Assembly (NCBI GenBank): GCA_001805965.1
Contig: MHHG01000005.1
Span: 5,279-69,278 of the forward strand
Length of the DNA stretch: 64,000 nucleotides
Direction: 5' to 3'
From: Omnitrophica WOR_2 bacterium RIFOXYA2_FULL_38_17
Lineage (GTDB): Bacteria; Omnitrophota; Gorgyraeia; Zapsychrales; Zapsychraceae
The translations under genes and the position numbers were made by a program. Below the pieces are notes generated by a model, which saw only the letters and a list, made by a program, of their open reading frames with translations, searched no databases and was not told the DNA's origin. Shown here piece by piece: positions 1,910 to 50,917 of the stretch (position 1 is its first letter; the number at the start of each line of letters is the position of its first letter).

Positions 1910-1918
1910 GGAACTTAA

Positions 1919-3283: not shown

Positions 3284-3287
3284 TATA

Positions 3288-23774: not shown

Positions 23775-23827
23775 ACCATCTCATTTGATTAGAATTAATT
23801 ATTTTTATGATAGTAACAGGAGAAATT

Positions 23828-26717: not shown

Positions 26718-26754
26718 CAATACTTCAGTAATATCTTAATGTATGGAGATTTCC

Positions 26755-28158
26755 ATGAACTATAGAATAGAAAATGATTCTTTAGGTAACATAAAAGTCC
26801 CTGATAATAAATACTACGGGTCGCAAACCGCACGGGCAATTGAAAACTTTAAAATAGGCTCCGAGCAATTGCCGTATTCCTTTATAAAAGCTTTGGCTTT
26901 AATAAAAAAAGCTGCCGCAATCTCCAATGCAGAATTAGGCTTACTGTCAAAAACAAAATCGGAACTGATCTCAACGGCTGCTGATGAGATAATTGCAGGT
27001 AAACTTCGTGATAATTTTCCTATATTCGTATGGCAAACAGGCAGCGGAACTCAAACTAATATGAACGTTAATGAAGTCATTGCTAACAGGGCTATCGAAC
27101 TCTCTGGCGGGAAGCTTGGAAGCAAAGATCCGATTCACCCTAATGACGATGTAAACAAGTGCCAGTCTTCAAACGATGTTTTTCCAACAGCAATGCACTT
27201 ATCAAGTGTCGAAGAGATAATAACTAAACTTATTCCTTCAATTTCAAAACTACGTGACACACTTCTAAAAAAAAGTAAAAAATTCAAGGATATTATAAAA
27301 ATAGGCCGGACACATCTTATGGATGCAACACCATTAACCTTAGGAGATGAATTCTCAGCCTATGCACATCAGCTTTCAAATGCTTTAGACAGAATTAAAA
27401 GCACCCTACCAAGATTATATGAATTACCTATAGGCGGGACTGCTGTCGGGACAGGGCTTAACGCTCATCCTAAGTTCGCCGCTAAAGTAGTGAGCAAAAT
27501 TTCAAATTTTACTAGTTTGCCATTTGTAAGCTCGCCTAACAAATTCGAAGCGATCGCAGCTCATGATACTATTGTTGAATTTAGCGGAATACTGAAAACA
27601 ATTGCAGTTTCCCTCATGAAGATAGGAAACGATGTAAGATGGCTCGGCAGTGGCCCTAGATGCGCAATAGGTGAAATTAATTTGCCTGCTAATGAACCAG
27701 GCAGTTCGATTATGCCGGGTAAAGTCAATCCAACACAATGTGAAGCTTTGACAATGGTATGTGCGCAGGTTCTTGGAAACGATACTACGATAAACATTGC
27801 AGGTTCAAGCGGTAATTTTGAGCTTAATGTTTTTAAACCTGTAATAATATATAATCTTTTGCAATCTATCACTCTTATTTCCGATGCATCAATCAGCTTC
27901 AGTAAAAACTGCGTTGAGGGACTGACTGCAAACATTGCTAATATAAACAATAATTTAAATAAATCTTTAATGCTTGTGACTGCACTGAATCCTCACATCG
28001 GCTATGACAAAGCAGCTAAAGTAGCTCAAAAAGCGTATTGCGAAGGTATTACATTAAAAGAGGCAGCAATTTCTCTTAAATATTTAACTGCTGAAAAATT
28101 CGACAAACTTGTCAATCCTAAGGATATGATAAAACCTCTAAAAAACAAAAAGAAGTAA
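26755..28158 (+). CDS. fumC: Fumarate hydratase class II
   Basis: [28 protein letters not shown]...[11 protein letters not shown] is near-identical to the canonical FumC signature region. The start is at the ATG 7 nt after a GGAG RBS (the track ORF begins at 26743). Confidence 0.85.
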
Positions 28159-28171
28159 ACTATAAATTTCT

Positions 28172-28708
28172 ATGAATTTCCTCGAGTTAGTTAAAAAAAG
28201 ACAAAGCTGCAGAAAATACCTACCAGGTATAATTAAAAAAGAAACCATGGTTAGATGCCTTGAAGCTGCAAGACTTGCACCTTCAGCCTGCAATTCCCAA
28301 CCATGGCATTTTATAGTCGTAAACACTCCTGAAATTAAGGATAATCTTGCGGAAAAAGCATTTTCAGGAATTTACAAAATGAATGCTTTTGCAAAGCAAG
28401 CCTCTGCATTAATTGTTGTTGTACGAGAGCGTTCCCAATTTTCAGCAAAATTGGGATCTTATTTCAGAGGTGTTCAATACAGCCTTATTGATCAGGGAAT
28501 TGCATGCGAACACCTGATTCTACAGGCTGAAGAAGAGGGGCTAGCCACTTGTTGGATCGGATGGTTTAATGAAAAAGCTGTTAAGAAGTTCCTTGGTGTA
28601 CCCAAGATCCAGAAGATTGATACAATAATAAGTATCGGTTTCGCAGAAAACACTGAGATAAGAAATAAGATCAGAAAAGATATTTTGGAAATGGCTGACT
28701 TTAAATAA
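28172..28708 (+). CDS. Nitroreductase family protein
   Basis: Fold motifs RQSCRKY...APSACNSQPW are present. Confidence 0.7.
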   Translation: MNFLELVKKRQSCRKYLPGIIKKETMVRCLEAARLAPSACNSQPWHFIVVNTPEIKDNLAEKAFSGIYKMNAFAKQASALIVVVRERSQFSAKLGSYFRGVQYSLIDQGIACEHLILQAEEEGLATCWIGWFNEKAVKKFLGVPKIQKIDTIISIGFAENTEIRNKIRKDILEMADFK

Positions 28709-28743
28709 AACCAAATATTCTCTGTAAAGAATCAACATAATCC

Positions 28744-28788
28744 TTGACGAATCAATATCTTACAGCTAATATTGTATTCAATATTGAA
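28744..28788 (+). promoter_or_regulatory. Sigma70-like promoter TTGACG-N17-TAATAT with an adjacent perfect 12-bp palindrome TTCAATATTGAA
   Basis: The hexamers are at 28744-28749 and 28767-28772. The palindrome is at 28777-28788, ~45 nt upstream of the pilZ-like gene. Confidence 0.45.
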
Positions 28789-28831
28789 TGAGTAAACATA
28801 AATAGAAAACCTAAATAGCCAAAAATAATTA

Positions 28832-29209
28832 ATGTCTAAAATACAAAAATCAGGTCAAGAACGTCGATATTGCCCAAGAGCCAAGCGAATTATGAGCATT
28901 GAATATCGCCTGGTATCTACAAAAAGAAAATCTGCTGATAAAAATTGGCATCTTTCAATTACTCAAGACATGAGCTGTAATGGACTGACCTTTTATGCTG
29001 AACAAGAGTTTAAAAAAGATGAGCTTCTTGAAGTCCAGGTTATTATGTCTGGAATACTGGAAATATATAAAGGAAAATGCAGGGTCGTGCGAGCTGAAAA
29101 GAAGAATACAGGAGCCAATTTTTTGACAGCAATAACATTCGAACAAAAAGCATCAAAAGCTCCCGAAAAAGAAGCTAAACCCAAGAAAAAAAACGTCAAA
29201 AAGATTTAG
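28832..29209 (+). CDS. PilZ domain protein (c-di-GMP receptor-like)
   Basis: The RRYCPR (RxxxR) and DMSCNG (DxSxxG) motifs are present at typical spacing. Confidence 0.6.
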   Translation: MSKIQKSGQERRYCPRAKRIMSIEYRLVSTKRKSADKNWHLSITQDMSCNGLTFYAEQEFKKDELLEVQVIMSGILEIYKGKCRVVRAEKKNTGANFLTAITFEQKASKAPEKEAKPKKKNVKKI

Positions 29210-29239
29210 TTTATAAAATAATATTTAAAAGTCATAACA

Positions 29240-29269
29240 CCTTCGGATTTGTATCCCGGAGGTTTTTTT
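29240..29269 (+). terminator. Intrinsic terminator/attenuator hairpin between the PilZ gene and rseC-rnf
   Basis: The stem CCTTCGG / CCGGAGG (one G-U wobble) is followed by TTTTTTT. Confidence 0.45.
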
Positions 29270-29294
29270 AGGTCAAATCCTAAAACCAGTTCAT

Positions 29295-29723
29295 ATGAAT
29301 AAAAGGGACGCTAAGGTTAAGCACTCCGGCATAATTACAAAGATCGATAACGACCTTATTACTGTTAATATAGTTAATGCTTCCGCTTGTTCTAGTTGTC
29401 ACGCAAAAAGTCAATGTTCTTTATCAGAAAAACAAAACAAACTGATTAATGTTAAATATATTACCGATTACTCATCATTTAAAGTGGGCGATAGTGTTTC
29501 GGTATTAATAGAGCTATCAATTGGCTTTAAAGCCATATTTATCGGTTATTTATTACCATTTTTTATTTTATTGATAACTTTAATAGCATCTTTCATGTTC
29601 ACCCAAAATGAGGTAACTTCTGGACTTATATCTATATCCATGTTGATCCCTTATTATTTTGGTGTTTATTTTTTTAGAAATCGTCTTATTAAAAATTTTG
29701 AATTCAGCATAGAACCAATTTAA
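29295..29723 (+). CDS. RseC/MucC-family protein (SoxR-reducing system / Rnf-associated)
   Basis: There is an N-terminal Cys cluster (ASACSSCHAKSQC) followed by two TM helices. Its position directly upstream of rnf is typical. Confidence 0.65.
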   Translation: MNKRDAKVKHSGIITKIDNDLITVNIVNASACSSCHAKSQCSLSEKQNKLINVKYITDYSSFKVGDSVSVLIELSIGFKAIFIGYLLPFFILLITLIASFMFTQNEVTSGLISISMLIPYYFGVYFFRNRLIKNFEFSIEPI

Positions 29724-29744
29724 ATTTAATTATTTTATCGAAAT

Positions 29745-30626
29745 ATGCAAAGCACATTAAAATACGCAATTTTATCATTAAGTACCATTGGTACTGTATC
29801 CGCGATCATTCTTTATTTCATTGCACAAAAGTTCAAAGTTATAGAAGACCCGAGGATTGATGATGTTGAACAAGTTTTGCCTTTAGCGAATTGTGGTGGC
29901 TGCGGATATCCCGGATGCAGGAATTTTGCAGAAGCTTGTGTCAACAAACATGATCTTGCCTGTTTATATTGTCCAGTTGGTGGTCCTGCTACGATGCAAA
30001 AAATAGCTAAAATTCTGGGACTAGAAGCTGGCGAGCAAATACCAATGATAGCTGTAGTAAGATGTTCAGGTTCACCTGAAAATAGGCCAAAAACAACAAT
30101 TTATGACAGCGTAAAAAATTGTCTAATAGCTTCAAGTGTTTATAGTGGCGATACAGGCTGTGAATATGGGTGCTTGGGCCTTGGAGATTGTGTTGCTTCT
30201 TGTTTATTTGATGCAATACATATAAACGAAAAAACTAGTTTGCCAGAAGTTGATCAAGATAAATGCACCGCATGTAACGCATGTGTTAAAGCATGTCCAA
30301 AGAAAATTATTGAACTCAGAAAAAAAGGGCCTAAAGATAGGCGTGTTTTTGTATCTTGCATAAATAAAGAAAAGGGAGCCATTGCTAGAAAAAGCTGTAA
30401 AGTTGCCTGCATTGCCTGCATGAAATGCCAAAAAGAATGCCCTTTTGATGCAATCACTGTAGAGAATTTTCTTGCTTACATAGATTTTGAAAAATGTAAA
30501 CTGTGCAGAAAATGTGTCGCTGTCTGTCCAACTTCGGCGATCTTAGAAACAAATTTTCCACCAAAAAAAGATTCAGAGCTTAATAAAGAACCAATTGTTA
30601 CTCAAGAAAATAATACAAATGTCTAA
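29745..30626 (+). CDS. rnfB: Rnf complex subunit B (Fe-S)
   Basis: There is an N-terminal TM helix, CGGCGYPGC, and several CxxCxxCxxxCP ferredoxin motifs. Confidence 0.8.
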   Translation: MQSTLKYAILSLSTIGTVSAIILYFIAQKFKVIEDPRIDDVEQVLPLANCGGCGYPGCRNFAEACVNKHDLACLYCPVGGPATMQKIAKILGLEAGEQIPMIAVVRCSGSPENRPKTTIYDSVKNCLIASSVYSGDTGCEYGCLGLGDCVASCLFDAIHINEKTSLPEVDQDKCTACNACVKACPKKIIELRKKGPKDRRVFVSCINKEKGAIARKSCKVACIACMKCQKECPFDAITVENFLAYIDFEKCKLCRKCVAVCPTSAILETNFPPKKDSELNKEPIVTQENNTNV

Positions 30627-31962
30627 AGGTTTAAAAACATTTCCAGTCGGTGGTGTTCATTCATGTGATAACAAGCTTTCTGCGTCCAAGCAGATAGAAT
30701 CAGTCGCTTTGCCAACTATTGTAAGTATTCCGTTATCTCAACATATCGGTGCTCCTGCTATGCCTATAGTAAAACCTCTTGATAAGGTTAAAGTTGGCCA
30801 GCTTATAGCAAAGGCAAGCGGTTTTGTTTCGGCAAATATTCACTCCTCAGTTTCTGGAACTGTTAAGAAAATCGATGATGTTCCTGACTCATGTGGATAT
30901 AAAAGGCCTGCAGTTATTATCGATGTTGAAGGCGATATCTGGGAAGAAAATATAGATAGAACGGATTCTTTATTAAAGGAAATAATATTTGATCAAAAAT
31001 CCATTATAGAAAAGATCCAAGCGGCAGGAATAGTCGGCCTTGGTGGCGCAACTTTTCCTACACATGTCAAATTATCTGTACCAAAAGGAAAGACCTGTGA
31101 GTACCTTTTGATAAATGGTGTAGAATGCGAGCCGTATCTAACAAGTGATCACAGATTGATGCTTGAGAAGACAGAAGAGATTTTTGTAGGCATTATAATA
31201 GTAATGAAAGCACTTGGTGTTCCTAAAGCAATAATTGGCATTGAAAACAATAAAAAAGATGCAATTGATAAAATGTCAGCGATCTCTAATAATTATAAAG
31301 GCATTTCAGTGCAAGCATTAAAGGTTCAATATCCTCAGGGCGGAGAAAAGCAGCTTGCCAAAGCCTTAATTAATAGGGAAATCCCCGCACCGCCAGGATT
31401 GCCAATTGACGTTGGCTGTGTTATTCAAAATGTCGGTACAATTTATGCTATATATGAGGCCGTCCAAAAAAACAAGCCTTTGATAGAACGAGTTGTTACA
31501 ATTACCGGAAAATCGATTAAAAAGCCTTCAAATTTTTTAGCCAGGATAGGAACTCCCATAAGTATTTTAATTCAGGCTACAGGAGGACTTCCAGAAGATA
31601 CCGGCAAAATTATAAGTGGTGGCCCAATGATGGGCAAAGCAATAAACACTACGGATATTCCCGTATCTAAAGGTACTTCCGGCATCCTTGTTTTACCTGA
31701 GGAACTGTCAAACAGGAAAAATGCAAATAACTGCATACTTTGCGCAAAATGTGTTTCCGTATGTCCGCTCGGATTAGAACCGTATCTTTTATCAAAGCTT
31801 TCTTTAAAATCCTTGTTTGACAAAGCAGAAAATGAGCAGGTTGTAAATTGTATAGAATGCGGTTGCTGCAGTTATAATTGCCCGGCTAAGATACCTTTGT
31901 TAGATTTCATTAGATTAGCCAAGACAACTGTAATGAAAAATATTAGGAATAGAGTAAAATAA
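30619..31962 (+). CDS. rnfC: Rnf complex subunit C
   Basis: The RnfC/NqrA-like N-terminus is present, with two C-terminal 4Fe-4S motifs (CILCAKCVSVCP, CIECGCCSYNCP). The ATG at 30619 overlaps the rnfB stop (the track ORF begins at 30595). Confidence 0.8.
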   Translation: MSKGLKTFPVGGVHSCDNKLSASKQIESVALPTIVSIPLSQHIGAPAMPIVKPLDKVKVGQLIAKASGFVSANIHSSVSGTVKKIDDVPDSCGYKRPAVIIDVEGDIWEENIDRTDSLLKEIIFDQKSIIEKIQAAGIVGLGGATFPTHVKLSVPKGKTCEYLLINGVECEPYLTSDHRLMLEKTEEIFVGIIIVMKALGVPKAIIGIENNKKDAIDKMSAISNNYKGISVQALKVQYPQGGEKQLAKALINREIPAPPGLPIDVGCVIQNVGTIYAIYEAVQKNKPLIERVVTITGKSIKKPSNFLARIGTPISILIQATGGLPEDTGKIISGGPMMGKAINTTDIPVSKGTSGILVLPEELSNRKNANNCILCAKCVSVCPLGLEPYLLSKLSLKSLFDKAENEQVVNCIECGCCSYNCPAKIPLLDFIRLAKTTVMKNIRNRVK

Positions 31963-32960
31963 TGAATAATAACCTTTTAAAAGTATCCTTATCGCCACAT
32001 ATTTCAGGAAAAGGATCTGTAAAATCCATAATGTACGGGGTAATTATAGCTTTAATGCCTGCATTTATAGCAGGCTTGTACTTTTTTGGTATAGGGGCGC
32101 TTAGGGTCACTTTAACTGCAGTAGTTGCATGCGTGCTTTTTGAATACGTTATACAAAAATATCTTCTCAAAGTAGAATCAACAATTTCCGATGGATCCGC
32201 AATTATTACTGGCCTGCTTCTGGCATACAACGTCCCAAGTAATTTACCTCCAAATATCATAATACTTGGAAGCTTAGTAGCTATTGGAATAGCAAAGATG
32301 TCTTTTGGAGGATTAGGCAACAATCCGTTTAATCCCGCTTTGGTCGGCAGAGTTTTCTTGCTGATATCTTTTCCAGTCGATATGACTAGCTGGCCAAAAC
32401 CTATTCTGACAAGGGCATCTGCTATCGACGCTGTTACTGCAGCAACACCGCTTGCAATAGTAAAAGAAGGACTTGCTGGCGGTACACCTTATTCAAAACT
32501 GCTAACACAAATACCATCATACTGGGATCTGTTCATCGGCAACGTAGGTGGATGCATCGGTGAGGTTTCTGCCTTAGCATTGATAATTGGCCTTTTTTAT
32601 ATGTTGTACAAAAAAATTATTACATGGCATATTCCAGTCTCAATGACCGGTTCAATTTTTATTTTTACAGGAATTATGTGCCTGATAAATCCACAGTCTA
32701 ATGCAGACCCGTTTTTTCATATCCTGACTGGTGGTGTTTTGCTAGGTGCTATCTTTATGGCAACAGATATGGTTACTTCGCCTATGACCCCTAAAGGTAT
32801 GCTTATTTTCGGATCAGCCATTGGTATTTTAACTGTGATTATTCGAGTATTCGGAGCATATCCTGAAGGGGTATCTTTTTCTATCTTGATCATGAATGCC
32901 TTCGTGCCGTTAATAAATAAATTTTGCAAGCCAAAACGCTTTGGAGAAATAATAAAATAA
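31962..32960 (+). CDS. rnfD: Rnf complex subunit D (NqrB-like)
   Basis: It is a polytopic membrane protein with the conserved FMATDxVTSP motif. Confidence 0.8.
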   Translation: MNNNLLKVSLSPHISGKGSVKSIMYGVIIALMPAFIAGLYFFGIGALRVTLTAVVACVLFEYVIQKYLLKVESTISDGSAIITGLLLAYNVPSNLPPNIIILGSLVAIGIAKMSFGGLGNNPFNPALVGRVFLLISFPVDMTSWPKPILTRASAIDAVTAATPLAIVKEGLAGGTPYSKLLTQIPSYWDLFIGNVGGCIGEVSALALIIGLFYMLYKKIITWHIPVSMTGSIFIFTGIMCLINPQSNADPFFHILTGGVLLGAIFMATDMVTSPMTPKGMLIFGSAIGILTVIIRVFGAYPEGVSFSILIMNAFVPLINKFCKPKRFGEIIK

Positions 32961-33538
32961 TGGCTAATAAAGAATCAACATTTATAAATATGGTAGCTAC
33001 ACTGTTCATCGTGACATTCATTTCATCAGCGGCTGTAGGCTATGTATATGAAGCTACCAAAGAGCCTATTGCGCAAGCAAGGCTTGAGAAAAAAACTATT
33101 GCTATACGGGCAGTCGTGCCTGATTTTGACAATAAACCCATTGATGAAACATATACTATAAATTCCAATGTCGGGCCATTATCCTGTTACCCTGCAAAAC
33201 AGGGAGGTCAATTAGTCGGAACTGCTATTGAAGCAATTACGAATAAAGGCTTTGGGGGAACAGTGAAATTAATGGTAGGTCTTCTTCCAAACGGCGTAAT
33301 TAAAGATATTGCTGTTCTTGAGCACAAAGAGACTCCGGGCCTTGGGGATAAAATGGATAAAAGCAAATCTGATTTTAGTATTCAATTTAACGGCAAAGAT
33401 CCCTCTAAAATGAAATTAACCGTATCAAAAGATGGTGGTGATATAAACGCAATAACTGCCGCTACGATCAGCTCTAGGGCCTTTTGTGATGCTGTTCAAA
33501 CAGCATACACTTCATATATGAAAGAAGGAAAACAATGA
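32960..33538 (+). CDS. rnfG: Rnf complex subunit G (FMN-binding)
   Basis: An FMN-binding domain is present with the …ITAATISSRA motif. The in-frame ATG at 32960 overlaps the rnfD stop (the track ORF begins at 32924). Confidence 0.75.
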   Translation: MANKESTFINMVATLFIVTFISSAAVGYVYEATKEPIAQARLEKKTIAIRAVVPDFDNKPIDETYTINSNVGPLSCYPAKQGGQLVGTAIEAITNKGFGGTVKLMVGLLPNGVIKDIAVLEHKETPGLGDKMDKSKSDFSIQFNGKDPSKMKLTVSKDGGDINAITAATISSRAFCDAVQTAYTSYMKEGKQ

Positions 33539-34143
33539 ACCAGTGGGATAATTTTAAAAAAGGTTTTTTAAAAGAAAATCCTGTTTTTGTATTGTTGCTT
33601 GGATTGTGCCCTACTCTAGGGGTGACCACATCAGCCTTAAACGGCCTTGCAATGGGTCTTGCAACAGCCTTTGTACTAGTAATGTCAAACAGTGTAATTT
33701 CCCTGATTAAAAACCTGATCCCTAGTAAAGTCAGAATTCCATCTTTCATTGTTGTAATAGCTTCTTTTGTTACTATTGTTGACCTTGTTATGGCAGGCTA
33801 TGCTCCGGCACTGCATGCAAAATTAGGATTATTTATTCCCCTTATAGTTGTCAATTGCATTGTTCTTGGAAGAGCCGAAGGCTTTGCATCAAAGAACAAT
33901 TTACTTTCATCTTTAATTGACGGAGCCAGCATGGGCCTTGGTTTCGCATTTGCATTAACAATTTTAGGCGGAATAAGAGAGCTGCTGGGAGGGGGAGCTT
34001 TCTTCGGGCATAAATTTATAACAGGTGATGGGATACTTATCTTTGTTTTGGCCCCGGGAGCATTTATTGTTTTGGGATATTTGATCGCAATAGTTAATAT
34101 AATCAACAAATCAAAAGCGAAAGCTCATTGCAGCACTGACTAA
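33535..34143 (+). CDS. rnfE: Rnf complex subunit E
   Basis: It is NqrD/RnfE-like, with LGLCPTLGVTT. Its start overlaps the previous stop (ATGA). Confidence 0.8.
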   Translation: MNQWDNFKKGFLKENPVFVLLLGLCPTLGVTTSALNGLAMGLATAFVLVMSNSVISLIKNLIPSKVRIPSFIVVIASFVTIVDLVMAGYAPALHAKLGLFIPLIVVNCIVLGRAEGFASKNNLLSSLIDGASMGLGFAFALTILGGIRELLGGGAFFGHKFITGDGILIFVLAPGAFIVLGYLIAIVNIINKSKAKAHCSTD

Positions 34144-34153
34144 GGAATATTAA

Positions 34154-34726
34154 ATGGAATATTTTTCAATAATAATATCTGCGATATTCGTAAACAATAT
34201 AGTCCTTACACAATTCTTAGGGATATGTCCCTTTTTAGGCGTCTCAAATAAAGTTGAAACAGCTTTAGGAATGGGTGGTGCTGTTTTATTCGTAATGACC
34301 CTTTCAACAATAGTCACCTATTTAGTCCAAAATTACATTCTAGTACCTTTAAACATCGGATATCTTCAGACGATCACTTATATTCTTGTAATAGCTGCGC
34401 TTGTCCAAATGGTCGAAATCATACTTAAAAAAGTTAGTCCCGCATTATATCAAGCGTTAGGCGTATTTTTGCCCTTAATAACAACAAATTGCACCATTCT
34501 GGGAGTTGCTATTCTTGTCATTCAAAAAGAATATAATCTTATTGAAAGCGTATTATTTGCTATCTCAAATGCCTGTGGCTTTGCTTTAGCCCTTATTATC
34601 TTCTCAGGACTCCGTGAAAACCTGGATCTTGTTGAGATTCCTGAAGCTTTAAAAGGGGTTCCCATAGCTCTAATTATAGCAGGCCTCTTATCATTGGCTT
34701 TCATGGGTTTTGCAGGCATAGTATAA
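34154..34726 (+). CDS. rnfA: Rnf complex subunit A
   Basis: It is NqrE/RnfA-like, with FLGICPFLGVS. Confidence 0.8.
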   Translation: MEYFSIIISAIFVNNIVLTQFLGICPFLGVSNKVETALGMGGAVLFVMTLSTIVTYLVQNYILVPLNIGYLQTITYILVIAALVQMVEIILKKVSPALYQALGVFLPLITTNCTILGVAILVIQKEYNLIESVLFAISNACGFALALIIFSGLRENLDLVEIPEALKGVPIALIIAGLLSLAFMGFAGIV

Positions 34727-34751
34727 ATTTCTATTATAATTAATAACTATC

Positions 34752-35597
34752 ATGAATAAAATTATTGAGAAAATCCAATTATCCGAATTAGTCTATCAAT
34801 TAAAAGTAGAAGCACCACTTATTGCAACTGAGAGAAAACCTGGACAATTTATACTGCTTTTGCTATCTGAGGAGGGAGAGCGCATTCCTTTAACTATATC
34901 TGATGCAGACCCCAAAAAAGGATCTATAACATTGATCTTTCAGGTCGTTGGAAAGACAACCCACCTTCTGGCAGAGCTCAACAAAGGTGATTTTATAGCA
35001 AATTTAGTTGGGCCACTGGGAACACCAACTCATATTGAAAACTTTGGTTCAGTTGTTTGTGTCGGAGGCGGGATTGGGGCTGCTCCATTATATCCAATTG
35101 TGCAAGGCCTAAAAAATGCTGGAAACAAGGTCACTGTTATTTTAGGTGCAAGAAACAAAGAACTTTTAATATTAGAGAATAAAATGAAAGCATCTTCTGA
35201 TGAACTAATTATATGTACAGATGATGGCTCATATGGCAGAAAATGTCTTGTTACAGAACCATTAAAAGAGCTTTGTGAACAAAACAATAAACCTGACCTG
35301 GTTGTCGCTATCGGTCCTCCTATAATGATGAAGTTTTGTTCAGAAACCACACGGCCTTTTAACGTATCAACAGTAGTATCATTAAATACAATAATGGTCG
35401 ATGGCACGGGAATGTGCGGTGGCTGCAGGGTCATTGTTGGTGATAAAACAAAATTCGTTTGCGTTGATGGCCCTGAATTTGATGGCCATTTAGTCGATTT
35501 TGATAATATGATGAACCGGCTGAACGCTTATAAAAAACATGAAAACTCAGACCATCATCAATGCCATATTGATCTAAAAATTAAAGATAAAGAATAA
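34752..35597 (+). CDS. NfnA/SudB-like ferredoxin-NADP oxidoreductase small subunit (PyrK-like FAD/2Fe-2S)
   Basis: It has an FAD/NAD-binding fold and a C-terminal CGGCRV...C cluster motif. It is paired with a GltD-like subunit downstream. Confidence 0.65.
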   Translation: MNKIIEKIQLSELVYQLKVEAPLIATERKPGQFILLLLSEEGERIPLTISDADPKKGSITLIFQVVGKTTHLLAELNKGDFIANLVGPLGTPTHIENFGSVVCVGGGIGAAPLYPIVQGLKNAGNKVTVILGARNKELLILENKMKASSDELIICTDDGSYGRKCLVTEPLKELCEQNNKPDLVVAIGPPIMMKFCSETTRPFNVSTVVSLNTIMVDGTGMCGGCRVIVGDKTKFVCVDGPEFDGHLVDFDNMMNRLNAYKKHENSDHHQCHIDLKIKDKE

Positions 35598-35599
35598 CT

Positions 35600-37087
35600 A
35601 TGGCTTACGTACCACCTAAAAAATTAGCCCATGATGCAAAATTACTGCTTGAAGAATTGAAATCAAAAAAAGAACCTTTAACTCCAAAAGACAGAATTTC
35701 AATTCCACCTCAAGAAATGCCTGCTCAAAACCCAAATGATCGCAATGAAAATATGAACGAAGTTGCTCTTGGATATTTTGCTGAGCAAGCAAAGCTAGAG
35801 GCTATGAGATGTCTACAATGCAAAAATGCACCTTGCATTGAAGGCTGTCCAGTAAGAATAGATATACCGGCATTTATCAAAGCCATAACTCAGGAAGACT
35901 TTAAAAAAGCTATCGGAATAATAAAGAACAACAGCTTACTTGCAGCTGTATGTGGAAGAGTATGTCCACAAGAAACACAATGCCAAGAACCATGCACTGT
36001 AGGAAAATCCCTAAAAGACGTTAATAAAGCTGTTTCAATCGGCAGATTGGAAAGATACGTCGCAGATTGGGAAAGACTCCAAAAAAATATAGCTGAGCCT
36101 GTAATCAAGCCAACTACTGGGAAAAAAGTAGCAATAGTCGGCTGCGGTCCTGCAGGCATTACAGTTGCCGCGGATGTAAGAAGAGAAGGCCATGCAGTGA
36201 CAATATTCGAGGCTTTTCACAAAACAGGCGGTGTTCTTGTTTACGGTATACCTGAGTTCCGACTTCCAAAGAAGATCGTCCAAGAAGAAGTGGATTTTTT
36301 AAAAAAAATGGGTGTTGTAATTAAAACTAATTTTATTGTAGGAAGAACAAGAAAACTGACTGACCTTATGGGAAAAGATGGTTATGATGCTGTCTTCATC
36401 GGCTCGGGTGCCGGATTACCAAGATTTATGAATATTGAAGGAGAGAACCTTGTCGGCGTTTTTTCAGCAAATGAATATTTAACCCGATCTAATTTAATGA
36501 AGGCTTATGATAGAGAACATGCTGATACTCCAATTTTTGATTCAAAGATAGTCGCCGTATTAGGGGGCGGAAATGTTGCGATGGATGCTGCAAGAACAGC
36601 TTTAAGGATCGGAGCAAAAGAAGTTCATCTTATATATCGCAGGACAGAATCCGAAATGCCGGCAAGAGTTGAAGAGGTAACCCACGCAAAAGAAGAAGGC
36701 GTGATATTCCACATTTTACAGAATGCTAAACGAATTATTGGCGATCAGACCGGCAATGTAAAAGCGATCGAATGTTTAAAATATAAACTTGGTGAGCCAG
36801 ATGATTCAGGCAGAAGAAGGCCTGTTGTAATTGATGGCAGTGAATTCATTATTGACGTTGATACAGTTATTGTTGCAATTGGCAATGATTCCAATCCATT
36901 GATCAAACAAACAACTCCATCGCTTGTAACAAATAAGTGGTGCAATATTGTTGTTGACGAAAACTGTAAAACATCAATTGACGGCATTTATGCCGGTGGC
37001 GATATTGTATTGGGTGCTGCAACAGTAATTCTGGCAATGGGACAGGGCCGCATAGCTGCTAGGTCTATTAATGAATATTTAAAGTAG
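35600..37087 (+). CDS. NfnB/SudA/GltD-like NADPH-dependent oxidoreductase large subunit
   Basis: Two N-terminal 4Fe-4S motifs are present (CLQCKNAPC..GCP; CGRVCP). The Rossmann motif is VAIVGCGPAG, and a second FAD/NAD site is also present. Confidence 0.75.
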   Translation: MAYVPPKKLAHDAKLLLEELKSKKEPLTPKDRISIPPQEMPAQNPNDRNENMNEVALGYFAEQAKLEAMRCLQCKNAPCIEGCPVRIDIPAFIKAITQEDFKKAIGIIKNNSLLAAVCGRVCPQETQCQEPCTVGKSLKDVNKAVSIGRLERYVADWERLQKNIAEPVIKPTTGKKVAIVGCGPAGITVAADVRREGHAVTIFEAFHKTGGVLVYGIPEFRLPKKIVQEEVDFLKKMGVVIKTNFIVGRTRKLTDLMGKDGYDAVFIGSGAGLPRFMNIEGENLVGVFSANEYLTRSNLMKAYDREHADTPIFDSKIVAVLGGGNVAMDAARTALRIGAKEVHLIYRRTESEMPARVEEVTHAKEEGVIFHILQNAKRIIGDQTGNVKAIECLKYKLGEPDDSGRRRPVVIDGSEFIIDVDTVIVAIGNDSNPLIKQTTPSLVTNKWCNIVVDENCKTSIDGIYAGGDIVLGAATVILAMGQGRIAARSINEYLK

Positions 37088-37134
37088 AGCTGCATCAAAA
37101 CACAAAGGCTTTTAAGATAGCATCCTTAAAAACT

Positions 37135-38163
37135 ATGAATTCAAATAATAAATCTAAACTCGCAAGATTTTGGGAACAAATTGAAAAAGATACAATAAAG
37201 TGCACTCTATGCCCAAGACATTGTATTTTGAAGAATGGCCGATCTGGATTCTGTTTTGTAAGGCAAAACCTATCAGGAAAAATGGTCCTTATAACATACG
37301 GAAGAAGCAGCGGATTTTGTATTGATCCTATTGAAAAAAAACCTCTTAATCATTTCTATCCTGGAAGTAAAATCCTTTCATTCGGCACGGCCGGTTGCAA
37401 TTTAGGATGTAAATTCTGCCAGAATTGGGACCTAAGCAGATCCAGGGAATTTGACAGAATGACTGAAAAAGCTTCACCTGCAGAAATAGCTTTAGCAGCA
37501 AAAACCCATGATTGCAAAAGTGTTGCTTTTACATATAATGACCCAATTATATTTGCAGAATATGCAAGTGACACAGCAATTGAGTGCCATAAACTTGATA
37601 TAAAAACAGTTGCTGTAACTGCCGGATATATCACCGATGAGGCAAGGCCTTATTTTTTTGAACATATTGATGCCGCAAATGTGGATCTAAAGAGCTTTTC
37701 TGATGATTTTTATGAGAAATACTGTTCGGGACAGATTGAGCCTGTGTTGAAAACATTAGTATATCTTAAGGAAAGAACTGATGTGTGGTTTGAGATCACT
37801 AATTTGATAATTCCAGGCTTAAATGATACTGACCAAGAAATCAAGAATATGACAAAATGGATATTTACGAATCTGGGGAAGAATGTTCCACTGCATTTTA
37901 GCGCTTTTCATCCAATTTATAAAATGACCGATAGAAAAGCAACTCCAGAGGAAACTCTGATAAAAGCTAGGGATATTGCCCTGGATTCGGGATTACAACA
38001 TGTATATACCGGCAATATCCATCATAAAGAAAGCTCCAGCACTTATTGTTCAAATTGTAAGAACCTCTTAATTGAAAGAGACTGGTACACGATCGGAGAA
38101 TATAATTTAGTTAATAATAACCATTGTCCAAACTGTTCAACTGTTTGTGCCGGCATATTTTGA
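37135..38163 (+). CDS. AmmeMemoRadiSam-system radical SAM enzyme (PFL-activase-like)
   Basis: The N-terminal motif CTLCPRHC is followed by the radical SAM motif CNLGCKFCQNW. The C-terminal Cys pairs are CSNC...CPNC. Confidence 0.7.
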   Translation: MNSNNKSKLARFWEQIEKDTIKCTLCPRHCILKNGRSGFCFVRQNLSGKMVLITYGRSSGFCIDPIEKKPLNHFYPGSKILSFGTAGCNLGCKFCQNWDLSRSREFDRMTEKASPAEIALAAKTHDCKSVAFTYNDPIIFAEYASDTAIECHKLDIKTVAVTAGYITDEARPYFFEHIDAANVDLKSFSDDFYEKYCSGQIEPVLKTLVYLKERTDVWFEITNLIIPGLNDTDQEIKNMTKWIFTNLGKNVPLHFSAFHPIYKMTDRKATPEETLIKARDIALDSGLQHVYTGNIHHKESSSTYCSNCKNLLIERDWYTIGEYNLVNNNHCPNCSTVCAGIF

Positions 38164-38174
38164 GAAAACAAATA

Positions 38175-38936
38175 ATGAGAATATTAAGCTGGAACGTCAA
38201 CGGAATAAGGGCAATTGAAAAGAAGGGTTTTCTTGATTTTCTGCAAAAGGAATCTCCCGACATTTTATGCCTTCAAGAAACAAAATGTAACCCAGAGCAG
38301 CTAACAGACAAGCTTTTAGCTCCCAAAGAATACAAGAGCTATTGGTCATCAGCTGAAAAGAAAGGTTATAGCGGGGTCTGTATTTATACAAAGGAAGAAC
38401 CTGTTTCTGTAAAACACGGCTTTGGGATTGAAGAATTTGACTCAGAAGGAAGGATTTTAATTTTAGAGTTTAAGGACTTTGACCTGTTTAATATTTACTA
38501 TCCCAATGGCGGCGCAGCGAACAAACGTGTTCCTTACAAACTGGATTTCTATAAAGCTTTTCTTGATCATGCAAATAAACTCAAGAAGAAAGGCAAAAAG
38601 CTTATTATTTGTGGTGATGTTAATACTGCTCACAATGAGATAGACCTAGCCAGACCAAAGAGCAATGAAAATAATACCGGATTCCTTCCAGAAGAAAGAG
38701 CTTGGATAACAAAGTTCATTGATAATGGATTTATTGATACTTTTCGCCAATTCAACAATGAGCCTGGACATTATACCTGGTGGGACTATAAGACAAAAGC
38801 CAGGGAGCGCGACGTAGGATGGCGTATAGATTACTTTTTTATAACTGAAAATTTACTTTCAAAATTAAAAAAAGCATTTATAATGAAATATATTCTTGGC
38901 TCTGACCACTGTCCGACAGGAATTGAGCTCCAATAA
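38175..38936 (+). CDS. xth: Exodeoxyribonuclease III
   Basis: MRILSWNVNGIRA and the ...GDVNTAHNEIDL... catalytic motifs are present (the track ORF begins at 38124). Confidence 0.85.
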   Translation: MRILSWNVNGIRAIEKKGFLDFLQKESPDILCLQETKCNPEQLTDKLLAPKEYKSYWSSAEKKGYSGVCIYTKEEPVSVKHGFGIEEFDSEGRILILEFKDFDLFNIYYPNGGAANKRVPYKLDFYKAFLDHANKLKKKGKKLIICGDVNTAHNEIDLARPKSNENNTGFLPEERAWITKFIDNGFIDTFRQFNNEPGHYTWWDYKTKARERDVGWRIDYFFITENLLSKLKKAFIMKYILGSDHCPTGIELQ

Positions 38937-38991
38937 TTAACAGAAAAACAAATCAAGCTTCTTATAAAACCAGCAATCAAAAGAATACAAT

Positions 38992-50883: not shown

Positions 50884-50917
50884 AACTAATCTCTGAAAAA
50901 TATACGAGGATAATATT

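What the first reader, a model, noticed from the sequence alone, without database searches (positions are those of the whole stretch)
28832..37087. PilZ-domain gene, RseC, rnfBCDGEA and an NfnAB/SudAB-like pair in one cluster: a possible c-di-GMP-linked ferredoxin hub
The Rnf genes are in B-C-D-G-E-A order, with B first rather than the usual Clostridial CDGEAB or proteobacterial ABCDGE order. They are preceded by an RseC-family gene. They are followed directly by a ferredoxin-dependent NADP oxidoreductase pair, an FAD/2Fe-2S small subunit plus a GltD-like subunit. Co-localising the two main ferredoxin-coupled enzymes is notable for energy conservation in an anaerobe. A stand-alone PilZ receptor gene heads the cluster and is separated from rseC only by a short hairpin plus T-run. 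This hints that c-di-GMP could modulate or attenuate the redox module, which would be an unusual linkage.
Basis: partly seen in the sequence, partly recalled or inferred. Interest (0 to 1): 0.55.

Follow-up and report, generated by a model that had tools for sequence, protein, structure and literature searches.

The report
Rnf and Nfn genes beside PilZ
An uncultured Omnitrophota bacterium carries the genes for two well-known ferredoxin-linked redox enzymes (Rnf and Nfn) side by side, with a small c-di-GMP receptor gene just upstream as what looks like its own transcription unit; the parts are ordinary, and nothing yet shows that the receptor controls the enzymes.

Summary
Window 28832-37087 encodes a single-domain PilZ protein, RseC, RnfB-C-D-G-E-A and an NfnA/NfnB pair, and a hairpin plus T7 lies at 29240-29269. 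The window comes from Omnitrophica WOR_2 bacterium GWF2_38_59.

Most of the claimed oddities are ordinary:
- rseC-rnfBCDGEA is the standard Chlorobi/Bacteroidetes arrangement. It appeared wherever the contig reached among the 80 best-matching loci in reference genomes.
- The downstream pair is genuine Nfn type, not glutamate-synthase type.

What is specific to this lineage:
- nfnAB lies directly after rnfA. This was absent from 64 Bacteroidota loci and from 5 of 6 nearest NfnA contexts.
- The PilZ belongs to a small family whose named members are all Omnitrophota. The c-di-GMP-binding residues are invariant, the predicted fold is PilZ, and the C-terminal tail is basic.

The PilZ gene has its own conserved promoter-like block and a conserved terminator hairpin. 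In one distant relative rseC has a near-consensus promoter of its own. In another relative, pilZ-rseC-nfnAB occurs with no rnf genes. In a fourth lineage pilZ has no rseC beside it. In every lineage it sits downstream of fumC, directly or one gene away, inside a long syntenic block.

A c-di-GMP link to the redox module is therefore not excluded, but it is not supported. I rate this a new member of known kinds, of low to moderate interest.

The parts
26743..28158 (+). fumC (class II fumarase). It is context only, but it lies upstream of this PilZ family in every lineage examined: directly adjacent in three, one gene away in the window clade.
   Evidence: Pfam Lyase_1 plus FumaraseC_C. fumC lies directly upstream of PilZ in L089, L097 and L095/L096. 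In the window clade one nitroreductase gene separates them.
28172..28708 (+). Nitroreductase-family gene lying between fumC and pilZ in the window clade only.
   Evidence: Pfam PF00881. Absent at this position in L089 and L097.
28726..28779 (+). Nearly invariant 54-nt non-coding block holding a sigma-70-like promoter for pilZ (TTGACG 28744-28749, 17-nt spacer, TAATAT 28767-28772).
   Evidence: Promoter scan, 9 of 12 matches. The same hexamers occur in L001 and L003. Alignment A4 shows the block almost invariant while its flanks vary.
28832..29209 (+). pilZ: a 125-aa single-domain PilZ c-di-GMP receptor with a Lys-rich C-terminal tail.
   Evidence: PF07238 at 28.7 bits against 22.5. RRYCPR at residues 11-16 and DMSCNG at 46-51. 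R12, R16 and G51 are invariant in the 42-sequence family alignment. AF2 model pLDDT 85.5. Best structural matches are c-di-GMP-bound PilZ domains.
29239..29269 (+). Intrinsic-terminator-like hairpin (8-bp stem, 9-nt loop) followed by T7. It lies 30 nt after the pilZ stop and 25 nt before the rseC ATG.
   Evidence: Sequence. Folding energy -11.3 kcal/mol in the window and -13.8 to -14.2 in relatives. Stem and T-run are identical in four relatives while the loop and flanks vary. One of 3 such intergenic sites in 64 kb.
29295..29723 (+). rseC (RseC/MucC family; SoxR-reducing-system and Rnf-associated membrane protein).
   Evidence: PF04246 at 96.3 bits. CX2CX5C motif at C32, C35 and C41 (motif from PMC11729352). 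Detected in 60 of 80 Bacteroidota loci, immediately upstream of rnfB in most.
29745..30626 (+). rnfB (polyferredoxin-type subunit).
   Evidence: NF005504 at 448.4 against 437. FeS plus Fer4 domains and three CxxCxxCxxxC motifs.
30619..31962 (+). rnfC (NADH/FMN-binding subunit). The start is corrected to ATG 30619.
   Evidence: TIGR01945 at 543 against 246. Called as 447 aa in relatives.
31962..32960 (+). rnfD.
   Evidence: TIGR01946 at 386 against 207. DAVTAAT flavinylation-type motif.
32960..33538 (+). rnfG. The start is corrected to ATG 32960.
   Evidence: TIGR01947 at 159.7 against 102. DINAITAAT motif, against DVDAITAAT as the commonest form in homologs.
33535..34143 (+). rnfE.
   Evidence: TIGR01948 at 264.6 against 213.4.
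34154..34726 (+). rnfA.
   Evidence: TIGR01943 at 285.2 against 229.3. 68-78% identical to Bacteroidota RnfA.
34752..35597 (+). nfnA (small subunit with FAD and a [2Fe-2S] cluster). It starts 25 nt after rnfA with no hairpin between.
   Evidence: Best solved relatives are P. furiosus NfnI 5jca_S (313 bits) and T. maritima NfnA 4ylf_A (288 bits). ERIPLT and DGTGMCGGCRx10CV motifs present (motifs from PMC6405883). Spacer sequence.
35600..37087 (+). nfnB (large subunit with two [4Fe-4S] clusters, FAD and an NADPH site).
   Evidence: T. maritima NfnB 4ylf_B scores 514 bits and P. furiosus NfnI 491, against 275 for GltD 6s6s_G. RCx2Cx4Cx3CPV and GRVCPQExQCx3C...Gx2ER motifs present.
37135..38163 (+). 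AmmeMemoRadiSam-system radical SAM gene, co-oriented 47 nt after nfnB. Probably the tail of the same transcription unit.
   Evidence: TIGR04337 at 563 against 220. Conserved at this position in L001, L003 and L089, absent in L097.
38175..38936 (+). xth (exodeoxyribonuclease III), the last gene of the conserved block.
   Evidence: TIGR00633 at 326 against 99. Follows nfnAB, with or without the radical SAM gene, in all relatives.

Best explanation
The region is part of a long, vertically inherited block of central-metabolism and redox genes in one clade of Omnitrophota: gltA, pepA, fumC, (nitroreductase), pilZ, rseC, rnfBCDGEA, nfnAB, a radical SAM gene and xth.

**Shown.**
- rseC-rnfBCDGEA is a complete Rnf operon of the Chlorobi/Bacteroidetes type.
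- The next two genes are a genuine NfnAB pair.
- pilZ encodes a canonical single-domain c-di-GMP receptor.

**Inferred.**
- Rnf couples electron flow between reduced ferredoxin and NAD+ to ion translocation.
- Nfn uses reduced ferredoxin plus NADH to make NADPH, or runs in reverse.
- The two enzymes share ferredoxin and NAD(H). Placing nfnAB 25 nt behind rnfA, with no terminator between, lets a fermentative anaerobe co-express its NADH, NADPH and ferredoxin balancing machinery as one unit.
- pilZ is most likely its own transcription unit. It has a conserved sigma-70-like promoter and a conserved intrinsic terminator.
- Its position next to rseC is inherited synteny, not evidence that c-di-GMP controls Rnf or Nfn.

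**Open point.** In the window genome only 25 nt separate the terminator's T-run from the rseC start, and no promoter-like site lies between them. Some rnf transcription may therefore come from read-through of this moderate hairpin or from an unrecognised promoter upstream of it. That would co-express the genes but would not itself involve c-di-GMP.
For: **Gene identities.**

**Source organism.** The RseC protein is 100% identical to a protein of Omnitrophica WOR_2 bacterium GWF2_38_59.

**The rnf order is ordinary.**
- All 80 best reference-genome loci, almost all labelled Bacteroidota, show rnfBCDGEA as far as each contig extends.
- RseC was detected in 60 of them.
- The order is described for Chlorobi/Bacteroidetes in PMC4014512.
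- rseC directly upstream of rnf, and required for rnf expression, is described in Clostridium (PMC9124969).

**The pair is Nfn type.**
- The best solved relatives are NfnAB of T. maritima and P. furiosus, at 288-514 bits against 275 for GltD.
- All four Nfn signature motifs are present (PMC6405883).
- In L090, a GltB-GltD pair and an NfnAB pair coexist. The window protein is 78% identical to the NfnB and 32% identical to the GltD.

**Tight spacing.**
- Spacings from rseC to xth run from -8 to +47 nt.
- The rnfA-nfnA spacers contain no hairpin.
- No strict terminator occurs on the + strand until 46668.

**PilZ is a separate unit.**
- Its upstream promoter-like block is conserved.
- Its terminator is conserved with an invariant stem.
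- L089 has an 11/12 TTGACA-17-TATAGT site 28 nt upstream of rseC.
- L003 has a 9/12 site between the terminator and rseC.

**Adjacency is explained by synteny.**
- The whole block from gltA to xth is collinear in L001, L003, L089 and L097.
- The Rnf proteins of the window clade and of L089 are sisters in a concatenated tree, which is consistent with one origin.

**Prior reports.** Rnf and Sud/Nfn co-occurrence in Omnitrophota genomes is already published (PMC8542988).
Against: - In the window and in L001 no sigma-70-like site lies between the terminator and rseC. The spacer is only 25-41 nt (41 nt in L001), so where the rnf promoter lies is not explained.
- PilZ-rseC adjacency survives in three lineages whose PilZ proteins are only 40-49% identical, despite nearby insertions and deletions (nitroreductase, NfeD/Band7, rnf, radical SAM). 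In L097 the gap is only 14 nt. This could reflect selection.
- Only four lineages of the PilZ family could be examined for context.
- Promoter rules for Omnitrophota are unknown.
- No expression or biochemical data exist.
Confidence: 0.7

Rival explanations
1. Functional c-di-GMP link. The PilZ protein, when bound to c-di-GMP, docks on RseC or on an Rnf or Nfn subunit and tunes ferredoxin/NAD(P)H electron flow. The adjacency would then be maintained by selection.
For: - The c-di-GMP-binding residues are invariant across the family, and the fold matches c-di-GMP-bound PilZ adaptors such as PA0012, MapZ and MotI.
- pilZ lies immediately upstream of rseC in three divergent lineages: the window clade, L089 and L097. 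The gap in L097 is only 14 nt.
- When rnf is absent (L097), pilZ, rseC and nfnAB still stay together.
- RseC is reported as required for Rnf expression and function in C. ljungdahlii (PMC9124969).
Against: - The whole 14-15-gene block is syntenic, so adjacency is expected anyway.
- pilZ is linked at least as consistently to fumC upstream.
- L095/L096 have pilZ followed by a convergent gene and no rseC.
- None of the 82 other rseC-rnf loci fetched (80 reference-genome loci, nearly all labelled Bacteroidota, plus L086/L087) has a PilZ-like ORF.
- The window clade has a terminator between pilZ and rseC, and L089 has a separate promoter there.
- No GGDEF, EAL or HD-GYP gene occurs in the window.
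- The two papers that mention both PilZ and the Rnf complex were not opened, and their titles concern other subjects.
Confidence: 0.12
2. Attenuation without c-di-GMP. In the window clade the rseC-rnf-nfn operon has no promoter of its own. It is transcribed from the strongly conserved pilZ promoter, and the hairpin acts as a leaky terminator that sets a high-PilZ, low-Rnf expression ratio.
For: - Only 25 nt (window) or about 41 nt (L001) separate the T-run from the rseC ATG, with no promoter-like site there or inside pilZ.
- Relative to L003, the window lacks about 40 nt of spacer, the stretch that holds L003's 9/12 promoter-like site.
- The hairpin is moderate: an 8-bp stem with one G-U pair, a 9-nt loop and -11.3 kcal/mol.
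Against: - The stem and the T7 run are perfectly conserved, which argues for an efficient terminator.
- L003 and L089 have promoter-like sites directly upstream of rseC.
- The consensus scan is crude and Omnitrophota promoter rules are unknown, so a non-canonical promoter overlapping the pilZ 3' end cannot be excluded.
Confidence: 0.3
3. The downstream pair is not a bifurcating Nfn. It would instead be a non-bifurcating ferredoxin:NADP+ oxidoreductase or sulfide dehydrogenase, or a glutamate-synthase-type small subunit with a partner elsewhere.
For: - TIGR01316 carries the legacy name 'NADPH-dependent glutamate synthase'.
- P. furiosus NfnII shows that close homologs can lack NAD+-dependent activity (PMC6405883).
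- NfnB-like enzymes acting as plain Fnor have been described (PMC12221290, outline only).
Against: - All Nfn signature motifs are present, including the Asp-ligated [2Fe-2S] site.
- Scores against NfnI and T. maritima NfnAB are far higher than against GltD, and higher than against NfnII 5vj7 (172 and 455 bits).
- No GltB-like gene was found among the window genes scanned.
Confidence: 0.1

Closest known systems
Chlorobi/Bacteroidetes-type rnf operon (for example Bacteroides thetaiotaomicron rnfBCDGEA)
   Same: The gene order B-C-D-G-E-A is identical. RnfB belongs to the same equivalog (NF005504). RnfA is 68-78% identical and RnfB 52-69% identical. RseC was detected in 60 of the 80 loci, immediately upstream of rnfB in most (PMC4014512; PMC12718326).
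   Different: The host is Omnitrophota (PVC group), not Bacteroidota. nfnAB follows rnfA directly, which was seen in 0 of 64 Bacteroidota loci with enough flank. A PilZ gene lies upstream, which was seen in none of them.
Clostridium ljungdahlii rseC-rnfCDGEAB
   Same: A small RseC_MucC gene lies directly upstream of rnf. In C. ljungdahlii a putative terminator between rseC and rnfC is reported, and RseC is needed for rnf expression (PMC9124969).
   Different: The subunit order differs (CDGEAB against BCDGEA). Here the terminator lies before rseC, not after it. In Clostridium, nfn is located elsewhere.
NfnAB of Thermotoga maritima (PDB 4YLF/4YRY) and NfnI of Pyrococcus furiosus (5JCA), formerly called sulfide dehydrogenase SudAB
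   Same: The two-gene A/B architecture matches, all cofactor motifs are present, and the sequence matches score 288-514 bits (PMC6405883).
   Different: The spacer in the second NfnB cluster motif is 15 residues instead of 13. The genomic context is unusual, directly behind rnf. The activity is untested.
Stand-alone PilZ adaptor proteins (P. aeruginosa PA0012 8U0I, MapZ/PA4608 5XLY, B. subtilis MotI 5VX6)
   Same: A single PilZ beta-barrel with RxxxR and D/NxSxxG motifs. Structural matches reach probability 1.00 and TM-scores up to about 0.6.
   Different: There is no detectable sequence similarity to any solved PilZ, and identity in the structural alignments is only 11-17%. The protein has a Lys/Arg-rich C-terminal tail. 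Every named member of its family is labelled Omnitrophota. Its target is unknown.

Membership tests
Rnf complex (ion-translocating ferredoxin:NAD+ oxidoreductase) | All six subunits A, B, C, D, E and G are encoded together, and each passes its curated family cut-off. | tested here: met
   RnfB 448/437, RnfC 543/246, RnfD 386/207, RnfG 160/102, RnfE 265/213, RnfA 285/229.
Rnf complex (ion-translocating ferredoxin:NAD+ oxidoreductase) | Threonine acceptor motifs for covalent FMN in RnfD and RnfG ((S/T)-(G/A)-A-T preceded by Asp). | tested here: met
   RnfD has DAVTAAT at 156-162 and RnfG has DINAITAAT at 161-169. The same columns in Bacteroidota homologs read DA.TGAT and DVDAITAAT.
Rnf complex (ion-translocating ferredoxin:NAD+ oxidoreductase) | Fe-S cluster Cys motifs in RnfB and RnfC. 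| tested here: met
   Three CxxCxxCxxxC motifs in RnfB and two in RnfC. Fer4 domains.
Rnf complex (ion-translocating ferredoxin:NAD+ oxidoreductase) | Ferredoxin:NAD+ oxidoreductase activity coupled to Na+ or H+ translocation. | not testable with these tools
   Requires membrane biochemistry.
Chlorobi/Bacteroidetes-type rnf operon | Gene order rnfBCDGEA with rseC upstream. | tested here: met
   Window order. All 80 reference loci show the same order as far as the contig extends, and RseC was detected in 60 of them. PMC4014512.
[quoted passage not shown] | NfnA motifs ERxPxT (FAD) and DGTGMCGxCRx10CV (Asp/Cys3 [2Fe-2S]). | tested here: met
   ERIPLT at 43-48 and DGTGMCGGCRVIVGDKTKFVCV at 217-238. 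Motifs taken from PMC6405883.
[quoted passage not shown] | NfnB motifs RCx2Cx4Cx3CPV and GRVCPQExQCx3Cx13Gx2ER. | tested here: met
   RCLQCKNAPCIEGCPV at 70-85. GRVCPQETQCQEPC...GRLER at 119-152, with 15 residues instead of 13 in the last spacer.
[quoted passage not shown] | Closer to characterised NfnAB than to the glutamate synthase small subunit or dihydropyrimidine dehydrogenase, with no GltB partner. | tested here: met
   514 and 491 bits to NfnB against 275 to GltD and 171 to DPD. L090 carries both a GltBD pair and an NfnAB pair; the window NfnB is 78% identical to the NfnB and 32% identical to the GltD. No Glu_synthase domain among the window genes scanned.
[quoted passage not shown] | Electron-bifurcating or confurcating activity (Fd_red + NADH + 2 NADP+). 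| not testable with these tools
   Needs an enzyme assay. P. furiosus NfnII shows that homologs can differ (PMC6405883).
PilZ-domain c-di-GMP receptor | Match to PF07238 above the gathering score. | tested here: met
   28.7 bits against 22.5, residues 11-103.
PilZ-domain c-di-GMP receptor | RxxxR and (D/N)xSxxG c-di-GMP-binding motifs. | tested here: met
   RRYCPR at 11-16 and DMSCNG at 46-51. R12, R16 and G51 are invariant and S48 is at least 90% conserved in 42 family members.
PilZ-domain c-di-GMP receptor | Six-stranded beta-barrel PilZ fold. | tested here: met
   AF2 with the 42-sequence alignment gave pLDDT 85.5 and six strands. Twenty-nine of the first 30 Foldseek PDB matches are PilZ domains, most solved with c-di-GMP.
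PilZ-domain c-di-GMP receptor | Binding of c-di-GMP. | not testable with these tools
   Needs ITC, DRaCALA or a similar assay.
RseC/MucC family | PF04246 match and the conserved cytoplasmic CX2CX5C motif. | tested here: met
   96.3 bits against 24.4. C32-x2-C35-x5-C41. Motif from the abstract of PMC11729352.
RseC/MucC family | Two transmembrane helices. | tested here: inconclusive
   Kyte-Doolittle analysis gives one continuous hydrophobic stretch at 68-107. No dedicated topology predictor was available.
Rho-independent (intrinsic) terminator | G+C-rich stem-loop immediately followed by a U-run at the 3' end of a gene. | tested here: met
   Located at 29239-29269, -11.3 kcal/mol, T7. Stem and T-run invariant in four relatives. 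One of three such intergenic sites in 64 kb.
Rho-independent (intrinsic) terminator | Termination of transcription in vivo. | not testable with these tools
   Needs RNA 3'-end mapping.
Known riboswitch or cis-regulatory RNA (including c-di-GMP riboswitches) in the pilZ-rseC spacer | Match to any Rfam covariance model. | tested here: not met
   No match at E <= 1 across 28500-29900 on either strand.
   pilZ is adjacent to rseC in 3 of 4 lineages and lies with rnf in 2 of 4, but always inside a syntenic block. A separate promoter precedes rseC in L089 and a terminator intervenes in the window clade.

The most novel reading that the evidence does not exclude
An Omnitrophota-restricted family of small PilZ proteins with basic tails is a c-di-GMP-dependent partner of the membrane protein RseC. 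Through RseC it would adjust the ferredoxin, NADH and NADPH balance set by Rnf and/or NfnAB. On this reading the pilZ-rseC pair is the conserved core, and it persists next to nfnAB even where rnf is missing (L097).
Probability: 0.12. Interest if true: 0.6.

Novelty: new member of a known kind. Interest (0 to 1): 0.25.

Why it matters
As it stands, the finding documents three things:
- An Omnitrophota lineage carries a Bacteroidota-type rseC-rnfBCDGEA operon.
- That lineage has placed nfnAB directly behind the rnf operon.
- It harbours a narrowly distributed family of stand-alone PilZ receptors.

This is useful for metabolic reconstruction of an uncultured phylum, but it is not surprising. Rnf plus Sud/Nfn has already been reported across Omnitrophota genomes.

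It would matter more if the PilZ protein were shown to act on RseC, Rnf or Nfn. I know of no c-di-GMP effector that targets ferredoxin-linked energy conservation, and the function of RseC is still unclear.

Tried and rejected
- **Reference-genome scan with RnfA.** The scan defined the standard arrangement but returned no Omnitrophota relatives. Those came from exact-protein look-ups instead.
- **Metagenome scan with the PilZ alignment.** It found only one locus, the same contig as L089.
- **RseC homolog search.** Only 10 hits. The next-nearest, P0011 and P0013, had no PilZ and no nfn.
- **AF2 on the 4-sequence PilZ alignment.** pLDDT was 55.7, so the model was discarded. The 42-sequence alignment gave a usable model.
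- **Sequence search of the PilZ profile against PDB.** No hit. Membership of the fold rests on Pfam, the motifs and the fold search.
- **Rfam scan of the spacer.** Nothing found, so the riboswitch idea was dropped.
- **Built-in terminator scan.** Its hits were mostly weak and inside coding sequence, and it missed the real hairpin because of the loop-length limit. I replaced it with a stricter custom scan.
- **'B-first order is unusual'.** Considered and rejected.
- **'The pair is GltD-type'.** Considered and rejected.
- **Literature searches for PilZ with Rnf, and for rnf-nfn adjacency.** Titles and abstracts showed no prior description. The papers were not read in full.

Full report
**1. What is in the sequence**

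The + strand of window 28832-37087 carries ten closely spaced ORFs. Pfam and NCBIfam identify each of them:

| Gene | Coordinates | Evidence |
|---|---|---|
| PilZ (125 aa) | 28832-29209 | PF07238, 28.7 bits against a 22.5 cut-off |
| RseC/MucC | 29295-29723 | PF04246, 96.3 bits |
| RnfB | 29745-30626 | NF005504, 448 against 437 |
| RnfC | 30619-31962 | TIGR01945, 543 against 246 |
| RnfD | 31962-32960 | 386 against 207 |
| RnfG | 32960-33538 | 160 against 102 |
| RnfE | 33535-34143 | 265 against 213 |
| RnfA | 34154-34726 | 285 against 229 |
| PyrK/NfnA-like | 34752-35597 | see section 3 |
| GltD/NfnB-like | 35600-37087 | see section 3 |

Two listed ORF starts are mechanical. rnfC most likely starts at ATG 30619 and rnfG at ATG 32960. 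Those starts give the 447-aa and 192-aa products called in relatives.

Spacings from rseC through the following radical SAM gene and xth run from -8 to +47 nt. The hairpin CCTTCGG-N9-CCGGAGG followed by T7 lies exactly at 29240-29269.

The RseC protein is 100% identical to a protein of Omnitrophica WOR_2 bacterium GWF2_38_59, so the window comes from that metagenome-assembled genome or a near-identical one.

**2. The rnf arrangement is the ordinary Bacteroidota/Chlorobi type**

A scan of one genome per species with RnfA returned 80 best loci, almost all labelled Bacteroidota, with RnfA 68-78% identical. Mapping the window proteins onto them gave three results:

- Every locus shows rnfB-C-D-G-E-A as far as its contig extends.
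- RseC was detected in 60 of them, immediately upstream of rnfB in most.
- None of the 64 loci with at least 2.5 kb downstream of rnfA has nfnA or nfnB.

None of these loci, nor the two L086/L087 loci, contains an ORF matching a profile of this PilZ or the RRxxxR...DxSxxG motif pair in a plausible frame.

The literature agrees. rnfBCDGEA is described as the order in the Chlorobi/Bacteroidetes lineage (PMC4014512) and is used as the operon name in Bacteroides (PMC12718326). rseC directly upstream of rnf, and needed for rnf expression and autotrophy, is documented in Clostridium ljungdahlii and its relatives (PMC9124969).

The subunits carry the expected cofactor motifs:

- Flavinylation-type threonine motifs in RnfD (DAVTAAT) and RnfG (DINAITAAT).
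- CxxCxxCxxxC motifs in RnfB and RnfC.
- The conserved CX2CX5C motif in RseC.

**3. The downstream pair is Nfn, not a glutamate-synthase subunit**

Against all PDB sequences:

| Subunit | Solved relative | Bits |
|---|---|---|
| Small | P. furiosus NfnI, 5jca_S | 313 |
| Small | T. maritima NfnA, 4ylf_A | 288 |
| Large | T. maritima NfnB, 4ylf_B | 514 |
| Large | P. furiosus NfnI | 491 |
| Large | GltD | 275 |
| Large | Dihydropyrimidine dehydrogenase | 171 |

The Nfn review PMC6405883 lists four signature motifs. All are present:

- ERxPxT appears as ERIPLT.
- DGTGMCGxCRx10CV matches exactly.
- RCx2Cx4Cx3CPV matches exactly.
- GRVCPQExQCx3C...Gx2ER is present, with a 15-residue spacer instead of 13.

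In the Omnitrophota genome behind L090, a GltB-GltD pair and an NfnAB pair lie a few kb apart. The window protein is 78% identical to that NfnB and 32% identical to that GltD. No GltB-like gene was found in the window genes scanned.

Whether the enzyme actually bifurcates cannot be decided here. P. furiosus NfnII shows that close homologs can differ (PMC6405883).

**4. How common is nfnAB directly behind rnf?**

The arrangement is uncommon. It was absent from the 64 Bacteroidota loci. I also looked at the contexts of six of the nearest NfnA relatives outside the window's own clade. Five do not have rnf nearby:

- L088, Candidatus Aceula.
- L090, Candidatus Zapsychrus.
- L092.
- L093.
- L094.

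In three of these, nfnAB is followed by a roughly 160-aa gene and by isocitrate dehydrogenase, glutamate dehydrogenase or both.

Only L089, a Candidatus Omnitrophota MAG with about 52% G+C, has rnfA followed by nfnA, with a 29-nt gap. Aceula and Zapsychrus are reported to encode Rnf and 'Sud' elsewhere in their genomes (PMC8542988). Co-occurrence of the two enzymes in the phylum is therefore known, and only the contiguity is lineage-specific.

The rnfA-nfnA spacers in the window (25 nt), L001 and L003 (65-68 nt) are A+T-rich and contain no stem-loop. A strict scan finds no + strand hairpin-plus-T6 between 29263 and 46668. Co-transcription of rseC-rnf-nfnAB, and probably the AmmeMemoRadiSam radical SAM gene and xth, is the simplest reading, but it is an inference.

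The metabolic logic is standard. Rnf and Nfn share ferredoxin and NAD(H), and together they set the NADH, NADPH and ferredoxin balance (PMC6405883).

**5. The PilZ protein**

It has both canonical c-di-GMP-binding motifs: RRYCPR at residues 11-16 and DMSCNG at 46-51.

A word-indexed search found only five close homologs. A full HMMER profile search of 1.84 billion cluster representatives found 58 proteins at E <= 1e-3 and 41 at E <= 1e-10. Nearly all are 60-170 aa, and each is matched along most of its length. Every member that carries a source organism name is labelled Omnitrophota or Omnitrophica. The second look-up added no organism names.

In a 42-sequence alignment of the family:

- R12, R16 and G51 are invariant.
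- R19, R26, W39, T44, S48, F54, G74, G81, V85 and R87 are at least 90% conserved.
- Nearly all members end in a Lys/Arg-rich tail.

With this alignment AlphaFold2 gives a confident six-stranded model (pLDDT 85.5). Of its first 30 Foldseek matches in the PDB, 29 are PilZ domains, most solved with c-di-GMP: BcsA, PA0012, MotI, Alg44, MrkH, YcgR and MapZ. No solved PilZ is detectable by sequence alone.

This is a bona fide stand-alone PilZ receptor of a narrow, previously unremarked subfamily. Its target is unknown.

**6. Is pilZ tied to rnf?**

I could examine four lineages.

- **Window clade** (window, L001, L003-L005; PilZ 74-99% identical). The order is fumC, nitroreductase, pilZ, hairpin/T7, rseC-rnfBCDGEA-nfnAB, radical SAM, xth.
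- **L089/L091** (PilZ 40%, RseC 39%, RnfB 63% identical; G+C 0.51-0.53). The order is fumC, a 35-nt gap, pilZ, a 163-nt gap, then rseC-rnf-nfnAB, radical SAM, xth. An 11/12 sigma-70 consensus site (TTGACA-17-TATAGT) lies 28 nt upstream of rseC, and the gap has no terminator-like fold.
- **L097** (PilZ 49%, RseC 29% identical). The order is fumC, 23 nt, pilZ, 14 nt, rseC, 20 nt, nfnA-nfnB-xth. There are no rnf genes and no radical SAM gene at this site.
- **L095/L096** (PilZ 53% identical). The order is fumC, 102 nt, pilZ, 10 nt, then a convergent minus-strand gene, with no rseC.

So pilZ lies downstream of fumC in all four lineages: directly adjacent in three, and separated by one gene in the window clade. 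It is upstream of rseC in three lineages and in the same cluster as rnf in two.

The block from gltA to xth is collinear in the window clade, L089 and L097. In L097 the synteny extends further upstream into the glycosyltransferase genes. In a crude neighbour-joining tree of concatenated RnfB/C/D/E/A, without bootstrap support, the window clade and L089 are sisters. That is consistent with a single origin of the arrangement.

Adjacency is therefore largely explained by inherited synteny. It still survives several nearby insertions and deletions, so selection for the pilZ-rseC pair cannot be excluded.

**7. Transcription signals around pilZ**

Upstream of pilZ, a 54-nt block (28726-28779) is almost invariant among the window, L001, L003 and L004, while its flanks vary. 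It contains TTGACG-17-TAATAT.

Downstream, the hairpin stem and the T7 run are identical in four relatives, while the loop and flanks differ. There is therefore conservation but no covariation. Folding energies are -11.3 kcal/mol in the window and -13.8 to -14.2 in relatives. In the window a T-to-C change removes the ninth base pair. Only three intergenic hairpin-plus-T6 sites occur in the entire window, and each lies at a gene end. No Rfam family matches the region.

By sequence criteria, then, pilZ is a promoter-to-terminator unit of its own.

The unexplained point is the rnf promoter in the window. Only 25 nt separate the T-run from the rseC ATG. No sigma-70-like site lies there or inside pilZ. 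Relative to L003, the window lacks about 40 nt of spacer, the stretch that holds L003's 9/12 promoter-like site.

Either the hairpin is leaky and rnf is partly transcribed from the pilZ promoter, or a promoter exists that the consensus scan does not recognise. I put about 0.3 on substantial read-through. Even if true, that is ordinary attenuation and does not involve c-di-GMP.

**8. Verdict**

The best-supported reading (confidence about 0.7) has four elements:

- A Bacteroidota-type rseC-rnfBCDGEA operon.
- nfnAB appended to it, probably co-transcribed.
- A separately transcribed c-di-GMP receptor gene of a PilZ family so far seen only in Omnitrophota.
- A conserved block of central-metabolism genes that contains all of these.

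The 'c-di-GMP-linked ferredoxin hub' is neither refuted nor positively supported. I give a real functional PilZ-RseC/Rnf/Nfn link about 0.12.

All the parts belong to known families, and every membership feature that could be tested was met. The lineage-specific aspects are the rnf-nfnAB contiguity, the PilZ subfamily and its persistent position between fumC and rseC.

Novelty: new member of a known kind. Interest: about 0.25.

Noticed in passing
L097:10001-13051 (GCA_015233195.1): In this Omnitrophota relative, pilZ, rseC, nfnA and nfnB are packed with 14-nt and 20-nt gaps, and there are no rnf genes between rseC and nfnA. Either rnfBCDGEA was cleanly lost while rseC was kept, or it was inserted in the other lineages. 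An intact RseC without an adjacent Rnf is unexpected for an 'Rnf accessory' protein.
   Followed up: partly
window 28726-28779: A 54-nt non-coding block upstream of pilZ is almost invariant among relatives whose PilZ proteins are only 74-85% identical. It contains TTGACG-17-TAATAT plus conserved flanking bases that could be an operator or UP element.
   Followed up: partly
window 29745-34726, compared with L006-L085 and L089: The Omnitrophota Rnf proteins are about as similar to Bacteroidales Rnf (66-68% over five concatenated subunits) as to the other Omnitrophota lineage L089 (69%). In a crude NJ tree they nest among Bacteroidota sequences. This hints at horizontal acquisition of the operon, but the tree has no outgroup and no support values.
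   Followed up: partly
L088:10001-15505, L090:10001-14180, L094:10001-13998: In three other nfnAB-bearing loci (two from named Omnitrophota genera, Aceula and Zapsychrus; L094 is unlabelled), nfnAB is followed by a conserved gene of about 160 aa with no family assignment, and then by NADP-linked isocitrate dehydrogenase and/or glutamate dehydrogenase. This may be the more usual nfnAB context in the phylum.
   Followed up: no
window 37135-38163: An AmmeMemoRadiSam-system radical SAM gene (TIGR04337, 563 bits) lies between nfnB and xth, with no AmmeMemo partner genes seen nearby. It is conserved at this position in L001, L003 and L089 but absent in L097.
   Followed up: no
window 38992-39564 and L091:3825-4385: A 190-aa ORF with no Pfam or NCBIfam match follows xth in the window. 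A 30%-identical homolog lies upstream of citrate synthase in L091, so it stays associated with the block but at the other end.
   Followed up: no
window 1-64000: All but three of the 56 gene-sized ORFs tabulated here are on the + strand. TCA-related genes are scattered through the window: citrate synthase 23807-25165, fumarase 26743-28158, AcnA 46772-49453, and an aconitase-family large and small subunit pair 49483-51532. No GGDEF, EAL or HD-GYP gene was found in any ORF scanned.
   Followed up: partly
window 926-4685 and 43366-44805 (- strand): Three consecutive radical SAM genes (one with a SPASM domain) lie at the start of the window. Another radical SAM gene on the minus strand is 69% identical to a B12-binding radical SAM gene in L097. 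Their functions were not examined.
   Followed up: no
window 40235-43223: An ECF-type sigma factor gene is followed, with overlap, by a 791-aa protein carrying an N-terminal zf-HC2 anti-sigma motif and VWA/YfbK_C domains. This is a sigma/anti-sigma pair 1.3 kb downstream of the redox block.
   Followed up: no
window gene starts 29295-38992: The 20 nt upstream of each start codon in the cluster are A+T-rich, and most lack a recognisable Shine-Dalgarno sequence.
   Followed up: no
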